Positions 3,901-51,417 of a DNA stretch of 64,000 bases are shown here, piece after piece. Each line of letters starts with the position of its first letter. The stretch's first letter is position 1. The translations under genes and the position numbers were made by a program. A model generated the notes under the pieces. The model was given only the letters and a program-made list of their open reading frames with translations, made no database searches and had not been told where the DNA came from. Source of the DNA: Patescibacteria group bacterium (GTDB lineage Bacteria > Patescibacteriota > Patescibacteriia > Magasanikbacterales > JBBTQS01); the NCBI GenBank assembly GCA_038065555.1, contig JBBTQS010000002.1:26399-90398 (forward strand). Direction: 5' to 3'.

Positions 3901-6174
3901 TTAGAGTTTTGTGCTTTTGAGACGCAGTGAATTGAGGAGAACGGAAACCGAGCTCAACGCCATAGCAGCACCTGCAAATACAGGGCTGAGCAGCCATCCG
4001 AATATAGGGAAGAACAGACCGCTTGCCACAGGTATGCCGATACCATTGTACACGAATGCCCAGAAAAGATTCTGCTTGATACCACGCATCGTCAATCGGG
4101 AGAGGCGAATTGCTTTGCTGATCTTCGAGATATCGCCGTGGAGTAGCACAATGCCTGCGGATTCGAGAGCAACGTCGGTGCCTGTAGCCATTGCGATGCC
4201 TACATCAGCTTGTGCGAGCGCTGGAGCATCATTAATACCGTCTCCAGCCATGGCCACAATTTCTCCAGCCTTTTGTAGTGCCTTAATCTTGTCCATTTTC
4301 ATTTCTGGCAAGACACCAGCAACAATGTCGGCTATACCCACCTGCGCGCCAACAAAACGCGCGGTGTTCTCTGTATCACCAGTGAGCATCACCACAGTGA
4401 TCCCTAGGTTTTGCAACGCTTGCACTGCATCCTTTGCTTCGGGCTTGATTGCATCGGCTACAAATACTACACCGAGTAACGCCGTTGCTGTCGCGAGCAT
4501 CACGGGAGTTTTGCCTTGTCTGGTGGCGGTATCAATGTAGGATTGATCGAATTTGATTTTCAAGTCATTCATGAGTGTACTGTTGCCTGCCCAGAATGAG
4601 ATGCCTTTGATGGTGCCTGTTACTCCTTTGCCTTTGAGGGCTTCAAACTTTTCTACGGTATGTGTGGCCCATTTCTGCTCCACGGCATACGCCGTGATTG
4701 CGTGTGCGATTGGATGCTCCGATGTGCCTTCGAGAGAGGCAAGGATGGAGAGAATTTCTTCCTCCGTTGCATCGGAAAATGATTGAATGGAAATTAATTC
4801 TGGCTTTCCTTTGGTGAGGGTTCCTGTCTTGTCGACAACCACGGTTGTTACGTGGTGTAGCTTTTCCAGTGATGCTGCGTCTTTGACGAGGATGCCTTCT
4901 GCAGCGCCTTTGCCAACGCCCACGATAACAGCGGTAGGGGTGGCAAGGCCTAATGCGCAAGGGCATGCAATCACAAGAATACCAACGAAGGAAACGAGAC
5001 CGCCGGAGAGTGCCTGTGAAAAGCCGAGATACGATGTACCTACCGCAAGCCATAGCGCGAATGAGAGACAGGCTATTACGATGACAACCGGAACAAATAC
5101 TGACGAAATCTTGTCTGCGAGCGCTTGGATTGGTGCCTTGCTGCCCTGCGCATTTTGCACCATGGTGATGATAGAAGCGAGCATAGTTTCTGCGCCGACT
5201 TTTGTGGCGCGGAAGACGAAGGATCCTGTCGTGTTGATGGTTCCAGCAATGACCGCATCACCTTGCTGTTTTTCCTCGGGGATTGGTTCGCCGGTCACCA
5301 TGGATTCATCGACAAAAGACGAACCTTCAGTGATCACGCCGTCTACAGGGATCTTGGATCCTGGCTTTACAACGACTAGGTCGCCGTGGACTACGGTTTC
5401 GATGGGGACTGTGTGTTCTTTTCCGTCACGGAGCACGAATGCGGATTTTGCCTGTAGGTTGAGGAGTTTTTCGATGGCGTCACCTGTTCGGAGCTTTGCC
5501 TTTGTTTCTAAATACTTTCCAAGTGTAATGAATGCGATGACGATGATTGTAACGTCGTAGTAGTTGTTCTCCACATTGAGAAAGGGACGCAGAGTGTCCT
5601 CGAAGGCGGTAACAGCAAAACTGTAGATGAAGGCTGCTAGTGTACCGATACCAATAAGCGTATCCATGTTTGCTTTGCCATATCGGAAGAAGCGATATAC
5701 GCCCATGAGGTACGGTGTGCCTACAACGAAAAGAGTGTACGTGGCAAAAAGAGGGAGAAGGTGGTGGAAGAATTCCATCCAAACAGGCGGAAGCTTTGGT
5801 ATGGTATTTAGCTGTGCAGCGATATCCCAGGTCATGAGTAACGCACTGAAGATAGCGAGGGGGATCATTGTGAAAACACTTGTCCGGAGGGTAGTAATTT
5901 CTTTCAATTTGTCGTTGCGTGACTGCTGCGCACCGGTATGTAGGGAGTGGTCTTCATTTGTGCTGGTAGCGAATGAGTACCCGAGCGGCTCAACAACCTT
6001 GGAAAGTTGGTGCGGTGTTGTTTTTTCTGTGTCAAAGGTGATGCGGGCGGTTTCGGTGCCATAATTCACATCCACAGCCGTTACTCCCTCGTGTTTCTTG
6101 AGTGTGCGGGTGATGATATTTGCACAGGATGCGCAGTGCATGCCTTTTACTGGGAAGTTTTGTGTGGTTTGCAT
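3901..6174 (-). CDS. copA: Copper-translocating P1B-type ATPase
   Basis: N-terminal HMA (GMHCASC), TM CPC motif ([11 protein letters not shown]), DKTGTLT phosphorylation site, GDGINDAP hinge. Confidence 0.95.
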
Positions 6175-32036: not shown

Positions 32037-32465
32037 GGAGCGGTTGCAGCCATCATACGCCGAATTCTGTCGCATCTGCACGGATGCAGACGGGGCGATC
32101 ATATATCTTGGTCTGACATTGCTGGCAGACTCTTTGCGAACGAACTTTTCGGATGTCGCAACCTTGCGGTCGGACAAACGCTGCTCTTGCACCAGGAAGG
32201 GTTTACCACGTTGTGACCCGAAGGACACAGCGAGTCGCGTAGCTGCTGAGATTTGGATATCCGGAACCTCAGAACCTCACGACACTTTTCACCTTTCACG
32301 CACGCGAACGTGCGCTAGTATTGTCTCTGTGGCACTGTCCCGCGCGACGCATCGCTGCGCCGCGGATGGGTGTTACCCACTTCCACGACATGGCCCGAAG
32401 GCCAAGGGTGTTCGGACGTTCCTCTATGCACGCGAGGTGCACAGCGATCGCCGATGGCGGACCAA
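32037..32465 (-). ncRNA. rnpB: RNase P RNA (bacterial type A)
   Basis: Minus-strand transcript carries the P4 5-prime strand AGAGGAACGUCCG (consensus AGGAAAGUCCGGGC), GUGGGUAACACCC (GGUAACGCC), AGUGCCACAGAGACAAUAC (AGUGCAACAGAGAGCAAAC), GUGAAAGGUGAAAAGUG (GGGUGAAAGGGUG), GUGGUAAACCC...GGUGCAAG (CGGUAAACUCC...GGAGCAAG) and the P4 3-prime strand GACAGAAUUCGGCGUA (ACAGAACCCGGCUUA). A short P1 is formed by GCCAUC/GAUGGC. Ends are approximate (plus or minus 15 nt). Confidence 0.75.
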
Positions 32466-47857: not shown

Positions 47858-48873
47858 ACAAGTTTTGCCAAAGCTGCTTCGAGGACCTCTGGCAACGGGC
47901 TCGTGTACTTCACTGTTGCGCCTGTGGCATCTGTGAAGGAGAGTTCTGTTGCGTGGAGGAAAATGCGGGGGAGGGTGCGGTCCATGGTGTCCTGCTCGTA
48001 CGAAGGGAGCTGGTAGATTGGATCTGCAACAATAGGCATGCCCAGGGCGTAGAGGTGGACGCGGATTTGGTGCGTACGACCGGTCTTCGGTTCAACGTGG
48101 AGCAAGGTTTTCTTCTGGAAACGGCGGGTCACGCAGTAATAGGTGTGCGCAGGGCGTCCAGCTTGGTTGAGTGGGCGTGCAGCCATGGCAGCGCGGGTCT
48201 GTGAGCGTGCGATCGGGAAGTTGATGTCGCCATCTTCTGCAGCAGGTGCGCTGTGCACGAGGGCTGTATACACTTTGTGTACTTCGCGGTTTTTGAACTG
48301 GGCCTTGAGTGCGTCAAACATCTTTTGTGTGCGCGCCACAACCATCACACCGGAGACGTCGCGGTCGAGGCGGTGCACAATACCAGGGCGGTCTGCGACG
48401 CCCACTTTCGCAATCTCGGGATAGCGCGCAACAGCCCAATCCGAAAGCGTGATGCTCTTGGAGTGCTCGGTGCGATGCACAAGCATGCCAGAAGGCTTTT
48501 GTACGATGATGTACTCGTCTGTCTCGGCGAGGATCACAGGCTCTTCTGTCTGAGGCTTGGCTGCAGTGCGGTGTGTGCGACGTGCGCGGGTTGGGCGCTT
48601 CGCAGGCTCTGTTGGTGCCGGTGGTGTTGCGTCAGCGTCAATGGAGACTTCGTCCTGTGGGCGAAGCGCGTAATGCTTGGTCTTTGCTGTGTTGTTGACG
48701 GTTACAGCTCCTGCCTCGATGAGTTGCTGCACTTTCGAGCGCGACAACTCAGCCATGCGGGTTGCGAGGTAGAGATCGAGGCGCGTGCCAGCGTCGCCTT
48801 CTTCAACTGTGAATATCTTTTTTGACATGGTGTGTAGTGCTAGTACAATGCGTAATTGTAGTGCGTAACGCAC
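47854..48873 (-). CDS. RluA/RluD-family 23S rRNA pseudouridine synthase with N-terminal S4 domain
   Basis: HRLDRDVSGVMVVA catalytic Asp motif and S4-like N-terminus. Confidence 0.85.
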   Translation of the reverse strand: MRYALQLRIVLALHTMSKKIFTVEEGDAGTRLDLYLATRMAELSRSKVQQLIEAGAVTVNNTAKTKHYALRPQDEVSIDADATPPAPTEPAKRPTRARRTHRTAAKPQTEEPVILAETDEYIIVQKPSGMLVHRTEHSKSITLSDWAVARYPEIAKVGVADRPGIVHRLDRDVSGVMVVARTQKMFDALKAQFKNREVHKVYTALVHSAPAAEDGDINFPIARSQTRAAMAARPLNQAGRPAHTYYCVTRRFQKKTLLHVEPKTGRTHQIRVHLYALGMPIVADPIYQLPSYEQDTMDRTLPRIFLHATELSFTDATGATVKYTSPLPEVLEAALAKLV

Positions 48874-49153
48874 AGGAGGGGGCCCCTTGCGGCCTGCTCA
48901 ACTGTGTTCCTCAGACGTCGACCCTCCCGACGTCCTCTTTTTTTAGAGTGATTGTAGTATGAGGGAGCGGGGGGAAAGTTGCAACCTTGGGGGTATCAAA
49001 CGTACGAAATTCTCCTGGGAATTGATTGTTTAATTGTCCACAGATAGTGTTGTTGACAGCGCAGATCGATCCATTGTCTACTGTTGTGTGGCAGCGTTCG
49101 GAATGTTGAGTAGGTGCTCAGCAGGATGTCCGCTTCAACACGAGGAGAGTGCG

Positions 49154-49276
49154 ATGATCTGCAACGGCAAGGGCGGCGGCTCTGGTGGTCACGGCGGCGG
49201 CAACGGCGGCTCTGGCGGCCAGAGTGGCGGCAAGGGTGGCTCGACCGGCGGGACGACCGGAACGCGCGGCAAGTAA
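49154..49276 (+). CDS. Small glycine-rich peptide (40 aa from the ATG; in-frame upstream extension to TTG 49034 is possible); candidate ribosomal precursor peptide
   Basis: RBS GAGGAGA 8 nt upstream of the ATG. Sequence MICNGKGGGSGGHGGGNGGSGGQSGGKGGSTGGTTGTRGK with mixed GGC/GGT/GGG codons and 3-nt periodicity. Followed by a hairpin plus T-run, then an M16 peptidase gene. Confidence 0.35.
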   Translation: MICNGKGGGSGGHGGGNGGSGGQSGGKGGSTGGTTGTRGK

Positions 49277-49305
49277 CCAGAACCCGAGGTTCGGGTGATG
49301 GTGCT

Positions 49306-49346
49306 ACGGGGGTGTGCTGTAACGGTGCGCCCCCGTTTCATTTTTG
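49306..49346 (+). terminator. Terminator/attenuator hairpin between the small peptide ORF and the peptidase gene
   Basis: ACGGGGGTG ... CGCCCCCGT stem followed by TTCATTTTTG. The peptidase ATG is 6 nt further on, so read-through is required for its expression. Confidence 0.45.
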
Positions 49347-49351
49347 TAATT

Positions 49352-50578
49352 ATGACATCAGCAAAAATCATTTTTGATGCAAAAAGGAATTTGTTAGTGT
49401 GTGTTGATCCACGCGTTTCACTCGCATCGGTTTCGATTTGGTTTCGAGCTGGATCTCGATTTGACGCGGTAGGGAAGGAAGGTGTGGCACATCTTTTTGA
49501 GCATGTGTTGTTGCGTGGAGATGATGTGAATGGTGCAGATGCCTCATTGCGGGAACAAGAATCGCGTGGCGTTGTCGGTGGGGCGTATACGAATTACGAA
49601 ACGTCATATGTCTTCGGTATTGGCGCGCCAAATGACGCAGGCATCATGCTGCGTGAGTTATTGCGTGCTGTACAAACTGTTGCAGTCACCCCAGCAGCAC
49701 TGCGCAAAGAGAAACAGGTGGTTGTTGCAGAAATGAATGAGGCACAACAGGATGCAATGCAGATGGTCCGTGTTCTCTCTAATCAGGCAGTGTGGCCCAA
49801 CAGCGTACTTGGAAGAAATCTGTATGGCACGCCAACTTCACTTCAAAAGGTGCGAGTAGGTGATTTGTCATCGTTTTGGCGCGATCAATATCAATCACCA
49901 ATGATTGTGTGTGTTGTTCCTGATGAGGGGTTGGCTCAGCAGGTGCAGAAGCTTGTCAAAGGAGCCAAGCCCGCGCCAGCAAACCCAACAACAGAACTCA
50001 ACACCGTACTTCCTGAAATTGTACGAGAACGCGATGGGGACAGTACCGCAGTCTGTGTTGCGTATCGAATTGCGCCGCAAGGAGATTGGAAATCACATGC
50101 AGTGGCTGCTGTTGTGCGTGATTATCTAGCGAACTTTTGGTCATCGCGGTTGAATCAGGAACTACGGAGCAACAAGTCGCATGCGTATTGGGTGCGTGGT
50201 GAGACAACACATCTTTCTGATACGGGTGTATTGCGGATTTTGTTTGAAGTCGACACTTCATTAGTGGAACAATGTCGAAAGACTATTTCTCGAGAAATTG
50301 CATTACTGCGTTTGGGTACATGTGACGCAGTGTTATTGCGCACGTGCAAAAAAATGATACGTCTCACCCAGCAGCGCGCGTGGAGTGATCCAGAGGAATT
50401 GATGTGGTGGTATGGATGGCCGACGTCCCTTGGTATAGAGCCGATGACAACAGATGCTTGGTTGGAGATTCTTCAGTCGGTGACCGCTCGTGATGTTACA
50501 CGTTTTGCACAGACGTGGTTACAGGAAGAGCACTGCTCAGTGGCGCTATATGGTGCAGTTGGAAAAATGAAAAAATAA
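49352..50578 (+). CDS. M16-family (pitrilysin/insulinase-like) zinc peptidase
   Basis: Inverted zinc-binding motif HLFEHVLL (HxxEH) near the N-terminus; about 410 aa two-lobed architecture. Confidence 0.8.
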   Translation: MTSAKIIFDAKRNLLVCVDPRVSLASVSIWFRAGSRFDAVGKEGVAHLFEHVLLRGDDVNGADASLREQESRGVVGGAYTNYETSYVFGIGAPNDAGIMLRELLRAVQTVAVTPAALRKEKQVVVAEMNEAQQDAMQMVRVLSNQAVWPNSVLGRNLYGTPTSLQKVRVGDLSSFWRDQYQSPMIVCVVPDEGLAQQVQKLVKGAKPAPANPTTELNTVLPEIVRERDGDSTAVCVAYRIAPQGDWKSHAVAAVVRDYLANFWSSRLNQELRSNKSHAYWVRGETTHLSDTGVLRILFEVDTSLVEQCRKTISREIALLRLGTCDAVLLRTCKKMIRLTQQRAWSDPEELMWWYGWPTSLGIEPMTTDAWLEILQSVTARDVTRFAQTWLQEEHCSVALYGAVGKMKK

Positions 50579-50602
50579 AGAAGTCTTCTTGCTAGTAAAA
50601 GA

Positions 50603-50640
50603 ACAACACCCCCGGCGTGGTCGCGCAGGGGGTGTTGGTT
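50603..50640. terminator. Bidirectional terminator between the M16 peptidase and the convergent thioredoxin-like gene
   Basis: AACAACACCCCC/GGGGGTGTTGGTT stem. Confidence 0.5.
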
Positions 50641-50641
50641 G

Positions 50642-51229
50642 TCAGCGTTGCTGGATTCTGCCGAGCACTTGCGTCGTGCATTCTTCGATGCCAGACGCGA
50701 CGTGCGTTGGTGTCTTCCCAGAAGCGCCGGGGTATCTGATGCTCTTTGGCACGAGAACACAGGAGGGTAATTCCATTTCCGTATTTCGCGTGAGCATGGT
50801 GTAGGCGCGCTGGAATTCTTCGGTGAACGTCCAGTGTTCTTCTGTTTCGTCGTGCCATAGGACGACGTGTACAGGTAGACCTGTGTTGCCGCGTTCCTTC
50901 CAGAATTCCTTGACGAAGATGCATGGGCCGCACCAGCGCGAGCTCAGGATGACCAGGACATTGTCGCTGTTGTTCCGGAGTTGCTCGCGAAGCTCGACGA
51001 GTGAGCTGACGCGGGTCATTGCTGGTGGTTCGTCGATATCAGCGATGTTGTTTTTGTTGGCATCCTCGCACCCTCGGGTCTGCCGTGGGCCGCGAGTTTC
51101 CATGCATCGGTCGTCAGCATTGAGGACGCCATCGCCATCAATGTCGTTGGCTGGATACATGCTGATTACCGTCGCACACGCGCCGAGGCACAACATCATG
51201 AAAAAAAGTGGAATGATCGATTGTCGCAA
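50642..51229 (-). CDS. Thioredoxin-like lipoprotein with N-terminal calcium-binding-like Asp repeats
   Basis: Signal peptide plus lipobox (MMLCLGAC), DIDGDGVLNADD repeat, thioredoxin active site WCGPC. Confidence 0.7.
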   Translation of the reverse strand: MRQSIIPLFFMMLCLGACATVISMYPANDIDGDGVLNADDRCMETRGPRQTRGCEDANKNNIADIDEPPAMTRVSSLVELREQLRNNSDNVLVILSSRWCGPCIFVKEFWKERGNTGLPVHVVLWHDETEEHWTFTEEFQRAYTMLTRNTEMELPSCVLVPKSIRYPGASGKTPTHVASGIEECTTQVLGRIQQR

Positions 51230-51330
51230 GAGGCTCTCCTTGGATTGTATTCGACTACCACAGCGAACCCGTCGGGTACGTGCGAGGTAGACGGGGGATA
51301 CTACGATGTTTGATCGTATTTGTCAATATG

Positions 51331-51404
51331 TGGGCGCGCATGGACTCGAACCATGGACCAGTCGTGTATAAGACGACCGCTCTAACCACCTGAGCTACGC
51401 GCCC
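51331..51404 (-). tRNA. tRNA-Ile (anticodon UAU)
   Basis: GGGCGCG acceptor, GTAGCTCAGGTGGTTAGAGCG D-arm (classic tRNA-Ile), anticodon stem GTCGT/ACGAC with loop CTTATAC, T-arm CATGG-TTCGAGT-CCATG. Confidence 0.8.
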
Positions 51405-51417
51405 GTGTGTGGGGAAT

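What the first reader, a model, noticed from the sequence alone, without database searches (positions are those of the whole stretch)
49034..51229. Candidate ribosomal-peptide locus: glycine-rich small ORF, attenuator hairpin, M16 HxxEH peptidase and a convergent thioredoxin lipoprotein
A short ORF with a good RBS encodes MICNGK followed by 34 residues that are nearly all Gly interspersed with Ser/His/Asn/Gln/Lys/Thr (GGGSGGHGGGNGGSGGQSGGKGGSTGGTTGTRGK). Its codons vary (GGC, GGT, GGG) while keeping frame, arguing for coding constraint rather than a simple GGC microsatellite. It is followed within 30 nt by a hairpin plus T-run and then an M16 peptidase with the inverted zinc motif HLFEH. M16 peptidases are the dedicated leader or maturation proteases in several peptide natural-product systems (for example PqqF-type). 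A precursor gene, then an attenuating hairpin, then the processing enzyme is the typical stoichiometry-tuning layout of such operons. A Ca-binding-repeat thioredoxin lipoprotein (WCGPC) lies convergent just downstream. Glycine-rich secreted peptides (microcin-like) are known antimicrobials. Nothing here proves function, but the arrangement is not a standard housekeeping one. An in-frame upstream extension from TTG 49034 would add a Cys-containing 40-aa leader-like segment.
Basis: inference. Interest (0 to 1): 0.6.

Follow-up and report, generated by a model that had tools for sequence, protein, structure and literature searches.

The report
Conserved glycine-rich microprotein paired with peptidases
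The 40-codon glycine-rich ORF is a real gene from an unannotated family of tiny proteins, found sparsely from CPR bacteria to Proteobacteria, and it usually sits next to a protease gene of one family or another, which points to an undescribed peptide-protease partnership rather than a standard RiPP cluster.

Summary
ORF 49154-49276 (MICNGK...TRGK, 40 aa) has a Shine-Dalgarno site. A 14-bp hairpin plus T-run (49306-49345) follows it, then an M16 peptidase gene (HLFEH) and a convergent WCGPC lipoprotein gene.

The ORF is coding. About 40 distinct homologues turned up in Patescibacteria, Proteobacteria, Bacteroidota, Planctomycetota and metagenomes. They share a 30-residue core, GGHGxGxxGSGGQSGGxGGSxGGGTGTRGx-stop, of fixed length. 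Many synonymous codons encode it, including both TCN and AGY for invariant Ser.

Pfam, NCBIfam, PADLOC, PDB and the searchable literature have nothing on this family. Protein databases hold only over-extended ORF calls.

Every member has its own hairpin terminator. The immediate neighbour is usually a stand-alone cytoplasmic peptidase, and its family varies: M16 (8 lineages, including this one), C39-like, ClpP-like, trypsin-like and MA/YgjP-type.

No leader, transporter or conserved modifying enzyme is present, so RiPP or microcin membership fails. The thioredoxin-like lipoprotein and the upstream TTG extension are not part of the module.

Most likely this is a dedicated peptide-peptidase pair in which the peptidase acts on the peptide. 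Whether that cleavage activates or destroys the peptide is untested.

The parts
49053..49082 (+). Possible promoter of the peptide gene: TTGACA (49053-49058), an 18-nt spacer, then TCTACT
   Evidence: Read from the sequence. The -10 box is weak and the consensus scan did not flag it. L006 has TTGACA-17-TAATAA and L007 has TTGACA-17-TATAAT at the equivalent position. This is an inference.
49142..49149 (+). Shine-Dalgarno sequence GAGGAGAG, 4 nt before the ATG
   Evidence: L006 has the same GAGGAGAGTG. 26 of 39 family members have a GGAG-type site at this position, whereas most other genes of this window have none.
49154..49276 (+). Gene for a 40-aa glycine-rich basic microprotein (MICNGK + GGGS + a 30-aa conserved core that ends at the stop codon)
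   Evidence: Homologues with the same core are encoded by different codons in about 40 loci. The 98%-identical strain L001 differs by one synonymous GGC>GGT change.
49306..49345 (+). Intrinsic terminator of the peptide gene (14-bp G+C-rich stem, loop of 3, T-run). It probably also limits read-through into the M16 gene
   Evidence: In L001, G49329>A turns a U-G pair into U-A. An equivalent hairpin plus T-run follows the stop in nearly every family member that has downstream sequence, and it persists in full-length folds in 27 of 38.
49352..50578 (+). M16 (insulinase-type) zinc peptidase, 408 aa, the partner peptidase. Its start codon is 6 nt after the T-run and has no SD
   Evidence: Pfam PF00675 + PF05193. 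The start is set by the alignment with L002, where the region after the ATG is conserved at protein level through synonymous changes. HxxEH is invariant in the partner M16s that were aligned.
49490..49504 (+). HLFEH, the inverted zinc-binding motif of M16

Best explanation
Window 49154-49276 is a real, separately terminated gene for a 40-residue, glycine-rich, basic, disordered microprotein. It belongs to an unannotated family that is phylogenetically broad but sparse.

The family is defined by a 30-residue C-terminal core, GGHGxGxxGSGGQSGGxGGSxGGGTGTRGx. The gene forms a two-gene module with the stand-alone cytoplasmic peptidase encoded next to it, which here is the M16 enzyme at 49352-50578.

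The most likely mechanism is as follows. A Shine-Dalgarno-led transcript that ends at its own strong terminator produces the peptide in excess. The neighbouring peptidase takes this small unstructured peptide as its dedicated substrate.

The peptide has no leader, is conserved up to its last residue, and is paired with at least five unrelated peptidase families. I therefore favour cleavage as removal or gating of an intracellular effector peptide (turnover or self-protection) over site-specific maturation of an exported natural product.

Shown: the ORF is coding, it belongs to the family, it has its own terminator, and it lies next to a peptidase gene.
Inferred: the substrate relationship, the direction of its effect, and any cellular target.
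For: Coding and family:
- The peptide search found P0013 and P0014 with the same order of non-Gly residues.
- In the AT-rich L007 the core uses GGT/GGA, TCA/TCC and AGA where the window uses GGC, TCT/AGT and CGC.
- DNA pattern scans found members in Yoonia sediminilitoris DSM 29955, two Gammaproteobacteria MAGs, and Bacteroidota, Zambryskibacteria, Tepidisphaerales and Patescibacteria MAGs. About 35 more came from metagenomes.
- In 34 of 36 distinct genes the core is exactly 30 aa. Invariant Ser14 and Ser20 use both TCN and AGY codons, and Arg28 uses both CGN and AGA.

Gene anatomy:
- An SD is present in 26 of 39 members, and a hairpin plus T-run lies 10-30 nt after the stop in nearly all.
- AlphaFold2 with an alignment gives pLDDT 55 and no secondary structure.

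Peptidase link:
- Neighbour ORFs were clustered without reference to function. The four largest recurrent clusters are M16, C39-like (invariant Cys, His and HDPG), ClpP-like and trypsin-like.
- All 30 ORFs of these clusters are the immediate neighbour of the peptide gene, although adjacent positions are only 85 of 289 ORFs. They fall into 22 groups at 90% identity, with within-cluster identity down to 20-30%.
- Further loci have Peptidase_MA_2, YgjP-like or DUF2268 peptidases.
- Six extra loci reached through the protein search gave two more with M16 directly downstream.

M16 clade: the peptide is present upstream in the window, L006, L055, L081, L109, L147 and L148, and absent in L002 and L003. 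The M16 of L014 is only distantly related (40-75 bits), so that pairing arose independently.

None of the partner peptidases examined has an obvious signal peptide or an added sensor domain (read from the sequences).
Against: - No experiment or expression data exist. The substrate relationship rests on gene adjacency only.
- About 40% of non-redundant loci show no recognisable peptidase next door: L013, L019, L020, L091, L146 and the L062/L031/L134/L149/L152 subgroup.
- The closest M16 relative (L002, 64% identity) keeps M16 without the peptide, so this M16 is not strictly dedicated to it.
- The ClpP-like partners are divergent or convergent rather than in an operon.
- A few loci carry possible modifying enzymes after the peptidase: SET domain, class I methyltransferase, GNAT. 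That would fit maturation rather than removal.
- The scan patterns fixed some core positions in advance. Neighbour genes were called with a simple longest-ORF heuristic.
Confidence: 0.5

Rival explanations
1. RiPP or bacteriocin-type locus. The peptide is a precursor that the M16 peptidase (or the C39-like and other peptidases elsewhere) matures by site-specific cleavage. It may also be methylated or acetylated in some lineages, and it yields a bioactive glycine-rich peptide.
For: - The layout of precursor gene, hairpin, then peptidase gene recurs.
- M16 and C39 peptidases are known leader peptidases of RiPPs (review PMC10885120).
- The third gene is a SET-domain protein in L048/L066, a class I methyltransferase in L109/L120 (with a homologue about 3 kb downstream in L055), and a GNAT in L014.
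- L081 has an rSAM-SPASM enzyme with a PqqD/RRE domain 1.9 kb downstream.
Against: - There is no leader. The N-terminal extension is as short as MGK or MGP and is not conserved, while the conserved block runs to the stop codon. RiPP precursors show the reverse pattern.
- No modifying enzyme, transporter or immunity gene is shared between loci.
- The rSAM enzyme of L081 has its own Cys-containing precursor ORF next to it and has no homologue in the window or any other locus.
- The C39-like proteins are about 210 aa, stand-alone, and not fused to ABC transporters.
- Near-identity of the core across phyla is unusual for bacteriocins.
Confidence: 0.2
2. The peptide regulates the peptidase rather than being consumed by it. 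It acts as an abundant, labile plug or decoy (antitoxin-like) that keeps a potentially harmful cytoplasmic peptidase inactive until peptide synthesis stops.
For: - The small gene lies upstream and has a strong SD.
- A terminator lowers expression of the enzyme.
- The distribution is sporadic and looks horizontally transferred. Some loci sit near recombinases, integrases, ParA, or MutH-like plus methylase genes.
Against: - One conserved 30-residue sequence would have to inhibit five structurally unrelated catalytic types.
- No PADLOC defence model matches any component, apart from generic trypsin-fold similarity.
- L002 keeps the same M16 without the peptide.
Confidence: 0.12
3. A cis-acting leader peptide. 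Translation of the 21 Gly codons senses charged tRNA-Gly or ribosome status, and controls terminator read-through into the peptidase gene, in the manner of trpL or hisL attenuators.
For: - The ORF is a run of Gly codons, followed within 30 nt by a terminator whose T-run is followed 6 nt later by the SD-less M16 start codon. L023 shows the same geometry.
- About half of the loci have a peptidase gene on the same strand 40-100 nt downstream.
Against: - Non-Gly residues and the exact length are conserved at the amino-acid level through synonymous change. A codon-run sensor does not need that.
- Stand-alone, convergent and divergent members exist.
- The terminator persists in full-length minimum-energy folds in 27 of 38 genes, with no recurrent antiterminator.
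- The downstream genes are not glycine-biosynthesis genes.
- A TATAAT-like box often lies between the terminator and the peptidase start.
Confidence: 0.06
4. No functional link in this particular window. A mobile peptide-gene cassette happened to land in the 5' region of a housekeeping M16 gene. The peptide acts elsewhere, for example as a nucleic-acid-binding or protective hydrophilin.
For: - Relative L002 has the same rluD-M16 synteny and the same conserved upstream non-coding element, but it lacks about 300 nt that hold exactly the promoter, ORF and terminator.
- Many loci have no peptidase.
Against: - Seven of nine members of this M16 clade carry the peptide gene at the same position, despite only 30-40% protein identity. 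Two losses are more parsimonious than many insertions at one site.
- 30 of 30 recurrent peptidase ORFs are adjacent to the peptide gene.
Confidence: 0.07
5. Non-coding simple sequence: a GGC-rich repeat that happens to be open in this frame.
For: GGC makes up 76% of the Gly codons in the ORF against 36% in long ORFs of the window. There is a 30-nt imperfect tandem unit, and the region is open in several frames.
Against: The peptide is conserved across phyla with a different codon choice in each, and its core length is fixed.
Confidence: 0.01

Closest known systems
RiPP precursor-plus-peptidase operons that use M16 enzymes (subtilosin AlbE/AlbF, PQQ PqqA/PqqF, class III lanthipeptide PttP1/PttP2; review PMC10885120)
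   Same: A small peptide gene lies directly upstream of an M16 peptidase gene, with a hairpin between them. In all these cases the peptide is far shorter than ordinary proteins.
   Different: There is no leader/core split and no modifying enzyme such as rSAM, LanKC or PqqE. The M16 here is a single 408-aa protein, not a heteromeric pair. The peptide's whole conserved part runs to the stop codon. The partner peptidase family is interchangeable.
Microcin B17 precursor McbA (Gly/Ser/Cys-rich) and double-glycine bacteriocins processed by C39-ABC transporters (PCATs)
   Same: A glycine-rich, ribosomally made small peptide. In a third of the loci the partner is a papain-fold C39-like peptidase.
   Different: The core has no Cys, and no YcaO/McbBCD genes are present. 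There is no 15-25 residue double-glycine leader. The C39-like proteins are stand-alone, about 210 aa, and lack a transporter.
Self-immunity enzymes of microcin C: MccF peptidase and the MccE GNAT domain (from my own knowledge, not checked here)
   Same: The logic is an intracellular enzyme, a peptidase or an acetyltransferase, that neutralises a small toxic peptide inside the producer. One locus (L014) has a GNAT gene straight after M16.
   Different: There is no homology. Toxicity of the glycine-rich peptide is untested. No adenylating MccB-type enzyme is present.
Small acid-soluble spore proteins and their germination protease GPR (from my own knowledge)
   Same: An abundant, small, low-complexity, conserved protein paired with a dedicated protease that removes it.
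   Different: There is no homology. The organisms here do not form spores. GPR is one fixed family, whereas the partner here varies.
Leader-peptide transcription attenuators (trpL, hisL, pheL)
   Same: A short ORF enriched in one codon type, followed by an intrinsic terminator just before a downstream gene.
   Different: The peptide sequence itself is under selection. No alternative antiterminator was found. Gene orientation varies. The downstream genes are peptidases, not the biosynthetic operon for the amino acid concerned.

Membership tests
RiPP biosynthetic locus | Precursor peptide with a recognisable leader (or follower) and a variable core | tested here: not met
   The N-terminal extension is 2-25 aa and not conserved. 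The conserved 30-aa block ends at the stop codon.
RiPP biosynthetic locus | At least one post-translational modification enzyme encoded with the precursor | tested here: not met
   Neighbour clustering finds only peptidases as widely recurrent partners. Precomputed Pfam hits on neighbour genes of the 98%-identical locus L001 and Pfam scans of window ORFs flanking the peptide gene show no such enzyme. SET, methyltransferase, GNAT and rSAM genes each occur in only one or two lineages.
RiPP biosynthetic locus | Dedicated peptidase next to the precursor | tested here: met
   The M16 gene starts 75 nt after the stop. Adjacency recurs in about 24 lineages.
Double-glycine bacteriocin / class II microcin | 15-25 aa double-glycine leader, and a C39 domain fused to an ABC exporter | tested here: not met
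   There is no such leader. The C39-like partners are stand-alone proteins of 205-225 aa, and no ABC transporter clusters with the peptide.
Microcin B17-type linear azole peptide | Cys/Ser-rich core together with YcaO-type cyclodehydratase and dehydrogenase genes | tested here: not met
   The core has no Cys. No such genes appear among the neighbours.
Leader-peptide attenuator (trpL/hisL type) | Run of regulatory codons followed by a terminator | tested here: met
   21 of 40 codons are Gly, and the terminator starts 30 nt after the stop.
Leader-peptide attenuator (trpL/hisL type) | Mutually exclusive antiterminator structure; only the codon identity, not the peptide sequence, under selection; a cognate biosynthetic operon downstream | tested here: not met
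   The terminator is kept in full-length folds in 27 of 38 genes. Amino-acid-level conservation of His, Asn, Ser, Gln, Thr and Arg positions. The downstream genes are peptidases in variable orientation.
Peptidase family M16 (for the downstream gene) | HxxEH zinc motif together with the M16 N-terminal and M16_C domains | tested here: met
   HLFEH at 49490-49504. PF00675 at 1.8e-11 and PF05193 at 4.6e-13, both above the gathering score.
Glycine-rich microprotein family defined here (no public name) | 30-aa core GGHGxGxxGSGGQ[SR]GGxGGSxGGG[TS]GxRGx ending at the stop codon; total length about 33-55 aa; own SD and own hairpin terminator | tested here: met
   The window peptide matches every invariant position except Gly24, which is Thr here. 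SD and terminator are present.
Toxin-antitoxin or anti-phage defence system | Growth inhibition by one component that the other relieves, or a match to a known defence family | tested here: inconclusive
   PADLOC gives no hit for the peptide, M16, the C39-like or the ClpP-like partner, and only generic trypsin-fold hits for the trypsin-like partner. Toxicity cannot be tested with these tools.
Thioredoxin-fold lipoprotein as part of the module | Co-occurrence with the peptide gene across loci | tested here: not met
   A homologue (37% identity) sits beside M16 in L002, which lacks the peptide. It is absent from all other peptide loci.

The most novel reading that the evidence does not exclude
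The glycine-rich microprotein is a universal-target intracellular effector, for example one that acts on the translation apparatus or on nucleic acids. Its invariant GSGGQ and GGH motifs and its strict length would be what matter for that activity. A dedicated cytoplasmic peptidase of whatever family happens to be available gates the effector. This would be a new class of horizontally spread two-gene peptide-peptidase module. Genome annotation has missed it because the gene is under 50 codons and of low complexity.
Probability: 0.3. Interest if true: 0.9.

Novelty: categorically new. Interest (0 to 1): 0.8.

Why it matters
A 30-residue sequence that stays almost unchanged from candidate-phyla bacteria to Alpha- and Gammaproteobacteria, Bacteroidota and Planctomycetota must do something specific. 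Yet it is absent from Pfam, NCBIfam, PADLOC, the PDB and the searchable literature. In a library of 1.84 billion representative proteins it appears only as 14 mis-extended ORF calls.

Its consistent pairing with peptidases of unrelated catalytic types is a pattern I could not find described. It suggests a general peptide-peptidase relationship, which could be turnover, self-protection or activation, and this can be tested directly.

One carrier, Yoonia sediminilitoris DSM 29955, is a cultured strain. The peptide is also short enough to synthesise.

The case also shows how low-complexity genes of under 50 codons escape current annotation pipelines.

Tried and rejected
- Rfam on the whole window and on 48700-49500 at E<=10 found no RNA family at the locus.
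- A genome-contig scan with the M16 protein found no relatives.
- An exact look-up of the 40-aa peptide found nothing in the collection. The contig of P0012, the NCBI call of the same ORF, was not on record.
- Pfam and NCBIfam on seven family members at E<=10 gave nothing. My own profile finds these peptides at 40-60 bits, so HMMER's bias filter is not the reason.
- A PDB profile search gave nothing.
- PADLOC gave nothing specific.
- tblastn of a consensus peptide and blastn of a gammaproteobacterial member against phage, plasmid and E. coli collections found no match. The low-complexity filter may contribute to this.
- A viral contigs pattern scan gave three hits, none a family member.
- Literature searches on sequence strings and topic terms returned nothing relevant.
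- AlphaFold2 gave no confident fold, so I made no fold search.
- I considered a polyglycine-II bundle like snow-flea antifreeze protein, an ATCUN Cu/Ni site created by cleavage before GGH, and mimicry of the release-factor GGQ loop. None could be tested, and I keep them only as ideas.
- The conserved 'ORFs' on the opposite strand downstream of the peptide in L031/L062/L134 (cluster C3) look spurious. The conserved DNA there holds small ORFs on the same strand as the peptide gene, and Rfam finds no RNA family.
- The GTG 49295 start of M16, used by the gene call in L001, is rejected because relatives start at the position of ATG 49352.
Full report
**1. The observation**

- The ORF runs from ATG 49154 to TAA 49276 and encodes MICNGKGGGSGGHGGGNGGSGGQSGGKGGSTGGTTGTRGK. 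GAGGAGAG lies 4 nt upstream.
- Sixteen of its 21 Gly codons are GGC, against 36% GGC in 25 long ORFs of the window.
- Tandem Repeats Finder sees an imperfect 30-nt unit.
- A 14-bp hairpin (49306-49336) plus T-run starts 30 nt after the stop.
- The next gene is an M16 peptidase (PF00675 and PF05193) with HLFEH at 49490-49504.
- A convergent lipoprotein-like gene (50642-51229) carries WCGPC. Its Pfam Thioredoxin hit is sub-threshold (E=0.003).

The G+C-rich repeat is open in several frames. The ORF alone, and its GGC bias, could therefore equally indicate simple sequence.

**2. The ORF is coding**

The organism is a poorly sampled member of the Patescibacteria. NCBI holds the same ORF as a 62-aa hypothetical protein of a 'Patescibacteria group bacterium'.

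A strain with 98% identical M16 (L001) has the same peptide with one synonymous change. It also has a G>A change that turns a U-G pair of the hairpin into U-A.

The decisive evidence came from distant homologues.
- A peptide search returned P0013 and P0014, which have the same order of non-glycine residues.
- In the AT-rich contig L007 the same core is written with GGT/GGA, TCA/TCC and AGA codons.
- Back-translated DNA patterns then found members in Yoonia sediminilitoris DSM 29955, two Gammaproteobacteria MAGs, and Bacteroidota, Candidatus Zambryskibacteria, Tepidisphaerales and Patescibacteria MAGs.
- About 35 more distinct genes came from metagenomes. A profile search added further ones.

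Across 34 distinct genes, the stretch from GGH to the stop is exactly 30 residues. Twenty positions are invariant. Invariant Ser positions use both TCN and AGY codons, and the invariant Arg uses both CGN and AGA.

One caveat applies. The metagenome pattern fixed positions 1-4, 6 and 9-13 in advance. Positions 14-30 were free in that set and are just as conserved.

This excludes repeat slippage and non-coding simple sequence.

**3. Why the family was invisible**
- Pfam, NCBIfam, PADLOC and the PDB give nothing.
- My own profile scores members at 40-60 bits, so HMMER's composition filter is not the cause.
- In 1.84 billion representative proteins, only 14 match, and all are ORF calls of at least 53 aa extended upstream.
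- The exact 40-aa product is not in the 15-billion-protein collection.
- Text searches for the sequence strings and for topic terms found nothing relevant.
- The family is broad but sparse. The strict pattern gave 14 matches among 185,579 species representatives, and only 7 of them are family members.
- None was found in viral contigs, plasmids or E. coli.

**4. Anatomy of the gene**
- Members start 2-25 residues before the core, with starts such as MGK, MSK or MAK. Partners of ClpP-like enzymes have MKxLxxxYG instead.
- Most have a GGAGG-type SD. The exceptions include the loci with ClpP-like partners, one of them from a Bacteroidota MAG.
- In this window most other genes have no SD, which makes the one before the peptide gene stand out.
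- The family comparison places the start at ATG 49154. The TTG 49034 extension and NCBI's GTG 49088 start both lie upstream of the SD. Neither has any counterpart in relatives.
- Nearly every member that has downstream sequence carries a strong hairpin plus T-run 10-30 nt after its stop. This includes stand-alone genes such as L007.
- The hairpin persists in minimum-energy folds of the full transcript in 27 of 38 cases.

The hairpin is therefore first of all the gene's own intrinsic terminator.

In the window, the M16 start codon lies 6 nt after the T-run and has no SD. M16 must therefore be expressed either by read-through or from a promoter overlapping the terminator. I could not decide between these.

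AlphaFold2 with an alignment predicts disorder (pLDDT 55).

**5. The neighbourhood**

I clustered all ORFs of at least 80 aa within 5 kb of about 50 family loci, without regard to function. The largest recurrent clusters are all peptidases:

| Cluster | Evidence | Position relative to the peptide gene | Lineages |
|---|---|---|---|
| C39-like, about 210 aa | weak Pfam hits to C39-like families; invariant Cys, His, HDPG | same strand, 42-78 nt downstream | 9 |
| M16 | Pfam M16 domains | same strand, 1-100 nt downstream | 6 |
| ClpP-like | PF00574, 7e-19 | divergent 36-71 nt upstream, or convergent | 5 |
| Trypsin-like | PF13365, 3e-11 | upstream (L017) or downstream (L059), same strand | 2 |

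All 30 ORFs of these four clusters are the immediate neighbour of the peptide gene, while adjacent positions are 85 of 289 ORFs. Within-cluster identities go down to 20-30%, so these are old, independent pairings.

Other loci add a Peptidase_MA_2, a YgjP-like metallopeptidase and a DUF2268 protease.

The scans used only the peptide as query, so this enrichment is not an artefact of how the loci were found.

As a forward test I fetched six more loci reached through protein hits. Two have an M16 gene 73 and 84 nt downstream.

About 40% of loci show no recognisable peptidase. Several of these sit near integrases, recombinases or ParA. One subgroup (L062/L031/L134/L149/L152) has its own set of small conserved ORFs.

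**6. This window's M16**

The M16 proteins next to the peptide in the window, L006, L055, L081, L109, L147 and L148 form one clade (170-320 bits to each other, 30-40% identity). That clade also contains two members without the peptide, L002 and L003. The M16 of L014 is only distantly related (40-75 bits), so that pairing arose separately.

L002 has 64% M16 identity and the same L19-cmk-rluD-M16 synteny. It keeps a strongly conserved non-coding element upstream. It lacks about 300 nt that correspond exactly to the promoter, ORF and terminator of the peptide gene.

With seven carriers and two non-carriers nested among them, loss in L002 and L003 is more parsimonious than repeated insertion at the same site.

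The thioredoxin-like lipoprotein is conserved beside M16 in L002 (37% identity) and in no other peptide locus. It belongs to the local synteny, not to the module.

**7. What it is not**
- RiPP membership fails on the leader/core criterion and on the modifying-enzyme criterion.
- Double-glycine bacteriocin membership fails on the leader and on the missing C39-ABC fusion.
- Microcin B17-type membership fails on Cys and on YcaO genes.
- A trpL-type attenuator fits the codon run and the terminator. It fails on amino-acid-level selection, on variable gene orientation, and on the absence of an antiterminator.
- The rSAM-SPASM/RRE enzyme near the L081 copy has its own Cys-containing precursor ORF. 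It has no homologue elsewhere.

**8. How it most likely works**

Shown:
- a translated, strongly constrained, disordered, basic microprotein gene with its own SD and terminator;
- non-random adjacency to stand-alone peptidases that have intact catalytic motifs and no signal peptide.

Inferred:
- The peptide is the dedicated substrate of its neighbour.
- M16 'cryptases', ClpP without an unfoldase, and small Cys or Ser peptidases can all deal with a 35-50-residue unstructured chain. This point rests on established knowledge of these families.
- A peptide with no hydrophobic residues is a poor substrate for general quality-control proteases. That could explain the need for a dedicated enzyme.

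I favour removal or gating of an intracellular effector for three reasons. There is no leader to remove. Conservation extends to the last residue. The only property the partners share is proteolysis. I put the overall model at about 0.5. Within it, removal is roughly twice as likely as maturation.

The near-identity of the core across phyla argues for a conserved target other than the (variable) peptidase. I cannot name that target.

Rival models are set out separately: a RiPP-like precursor, a peptidase inhibitor, a cis-acting leader, and chance juxtaposition.

**9. Novelty and limits**

I found no described family or system with these properties. I label it categorically new at the level of family and architecture. 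Function is unproven, and the eventual mechanism may turn out to be a variant of known logic, such as a RiPP-like system, a toxin-antidote pair, or a protectant-protease pair.

Limits:
- pattern-based ascertainment;
- heuristic ORF calling of neighbours;
- Pfam support for the C39-like cluster is below the gathering score;
- no expression or biochemical data.

Noticed in passing
window 48822-48995 (+): A conserved non-coding element lies between rluD and the peptide gene. It has a promoter-like TTGACA-16-TACAAT (11 of 12 matches), then about 90 nt that fold (z=-2.3) and end in hairpin 48914-48934 plus T7. After that comes AGTGATTGTAGTATGAGGGAG...GAAAGTTGCAACCTTGGGGG, which contains the palindrome GTTGCAAC. 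The element is nearly identical in L002, where M16 is only 64% identical, and the terminator-like hairpin is retained there despite sequence changes. ATTGTAGT occurs only twice in the 64-kb window, both times here. Rfam has no hit. It may be a small RNA or a regulatory leader of the M16 locus, and it is independent of the peptide.
   Followed up: partly
window 51330-51404 (-): A tRNA-Ile with anticodon TAT (UAU), which is unusual for bacteria. Most bacteria read AUA with a lysidine-modified CAU tRNA.
   Followed up: no
window, start regions of 25 long ORFs: Most genes lack a Shine-Dalgarno sequence. Many have -10-like boxes (TATAAT, TATACT, TACACT) only a few nt before the start codon, which suggests short-leader or leaderless mRNAs. 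The peptide gene and the thioredoxin-like gene are among the few with a clear SD.
   Followed up: no
L001 7083-8005 versus window 51230-51417: The 98%-identical strain carries HIT and NUDIX genes between the thioredoxin-like gene and the next gene, at the place where the window has tRNA-Ile. This is a strain-level insertion or deletion.
   Followed up: no
L062, L031, L134, L149, L152 (downstream of the peptide gene): A subgroup of family loci has no adjacent peptidase downstream. Instead it has a second SD-led mini-ORF, MI[LY]GI[QD]GDDGGC[IV]RxGGGKG[RK], and a conserved ORF of about 66 aa (MGxYSYKRG...QQRLADEI...). Unannotated genes of 371, 217 and 915 aa follow. A YgjP-like metallopeptidase lies 483 nt upstream in L062.
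   Followed up: partly
L081 (oriented coordinates 4640-6112): Right after the M16 gene of this peptide locus lies an ordinary-looking rSAM RiPP cluster. It has an SD-led 60-aa ORF, MKQYEKPAVVSPGYSPEPVEAGCCLTSCGGSPGG..., with its own terminator. An rSAM-SPASM protein with a PqqD/RRE domain follows.
   Followed up: partly
L048/L066, L109/L120, L055, L014, L051: The gene after the partner peptidase is sometimes a protein-modifying or second proteolytic enzyme. Examples are a SET domain (L048/L066), a class I methyltransferase (directly after M16 in L109/L120, and about 3 kb downstream in L055), a GNAT Acetyltransf_3 (L014) and a DUF2268 zinc protease (L051). None is conserved across the family.
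   Followed up: partly
L006 760-850: The peptide ORF of L006 has one extra C in a CCCC run. Without it the ORF would end GTRGK-stop, like the rest of the family. As assembled, it runs on for 27 codons and abuts the M16 ATG. This is either a frameshift mutation or an assembly error.
   Followed up: partly
L007 9111-10528 and L081 (upstream of the peptide gene): Two loci with different partner peptidases (ClpP-like and M16) both have a MutH-like endonuclease gene and an N6/N4 DNA methylase gene next to the module. This is a restriction-modification or defence-island type of setting.
   Followed up: no
window 32045-32458 (-): Bacterial RNase P RNA class A (131.5 bits), an ordinary housekeeping RNA.
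   Followed up: no
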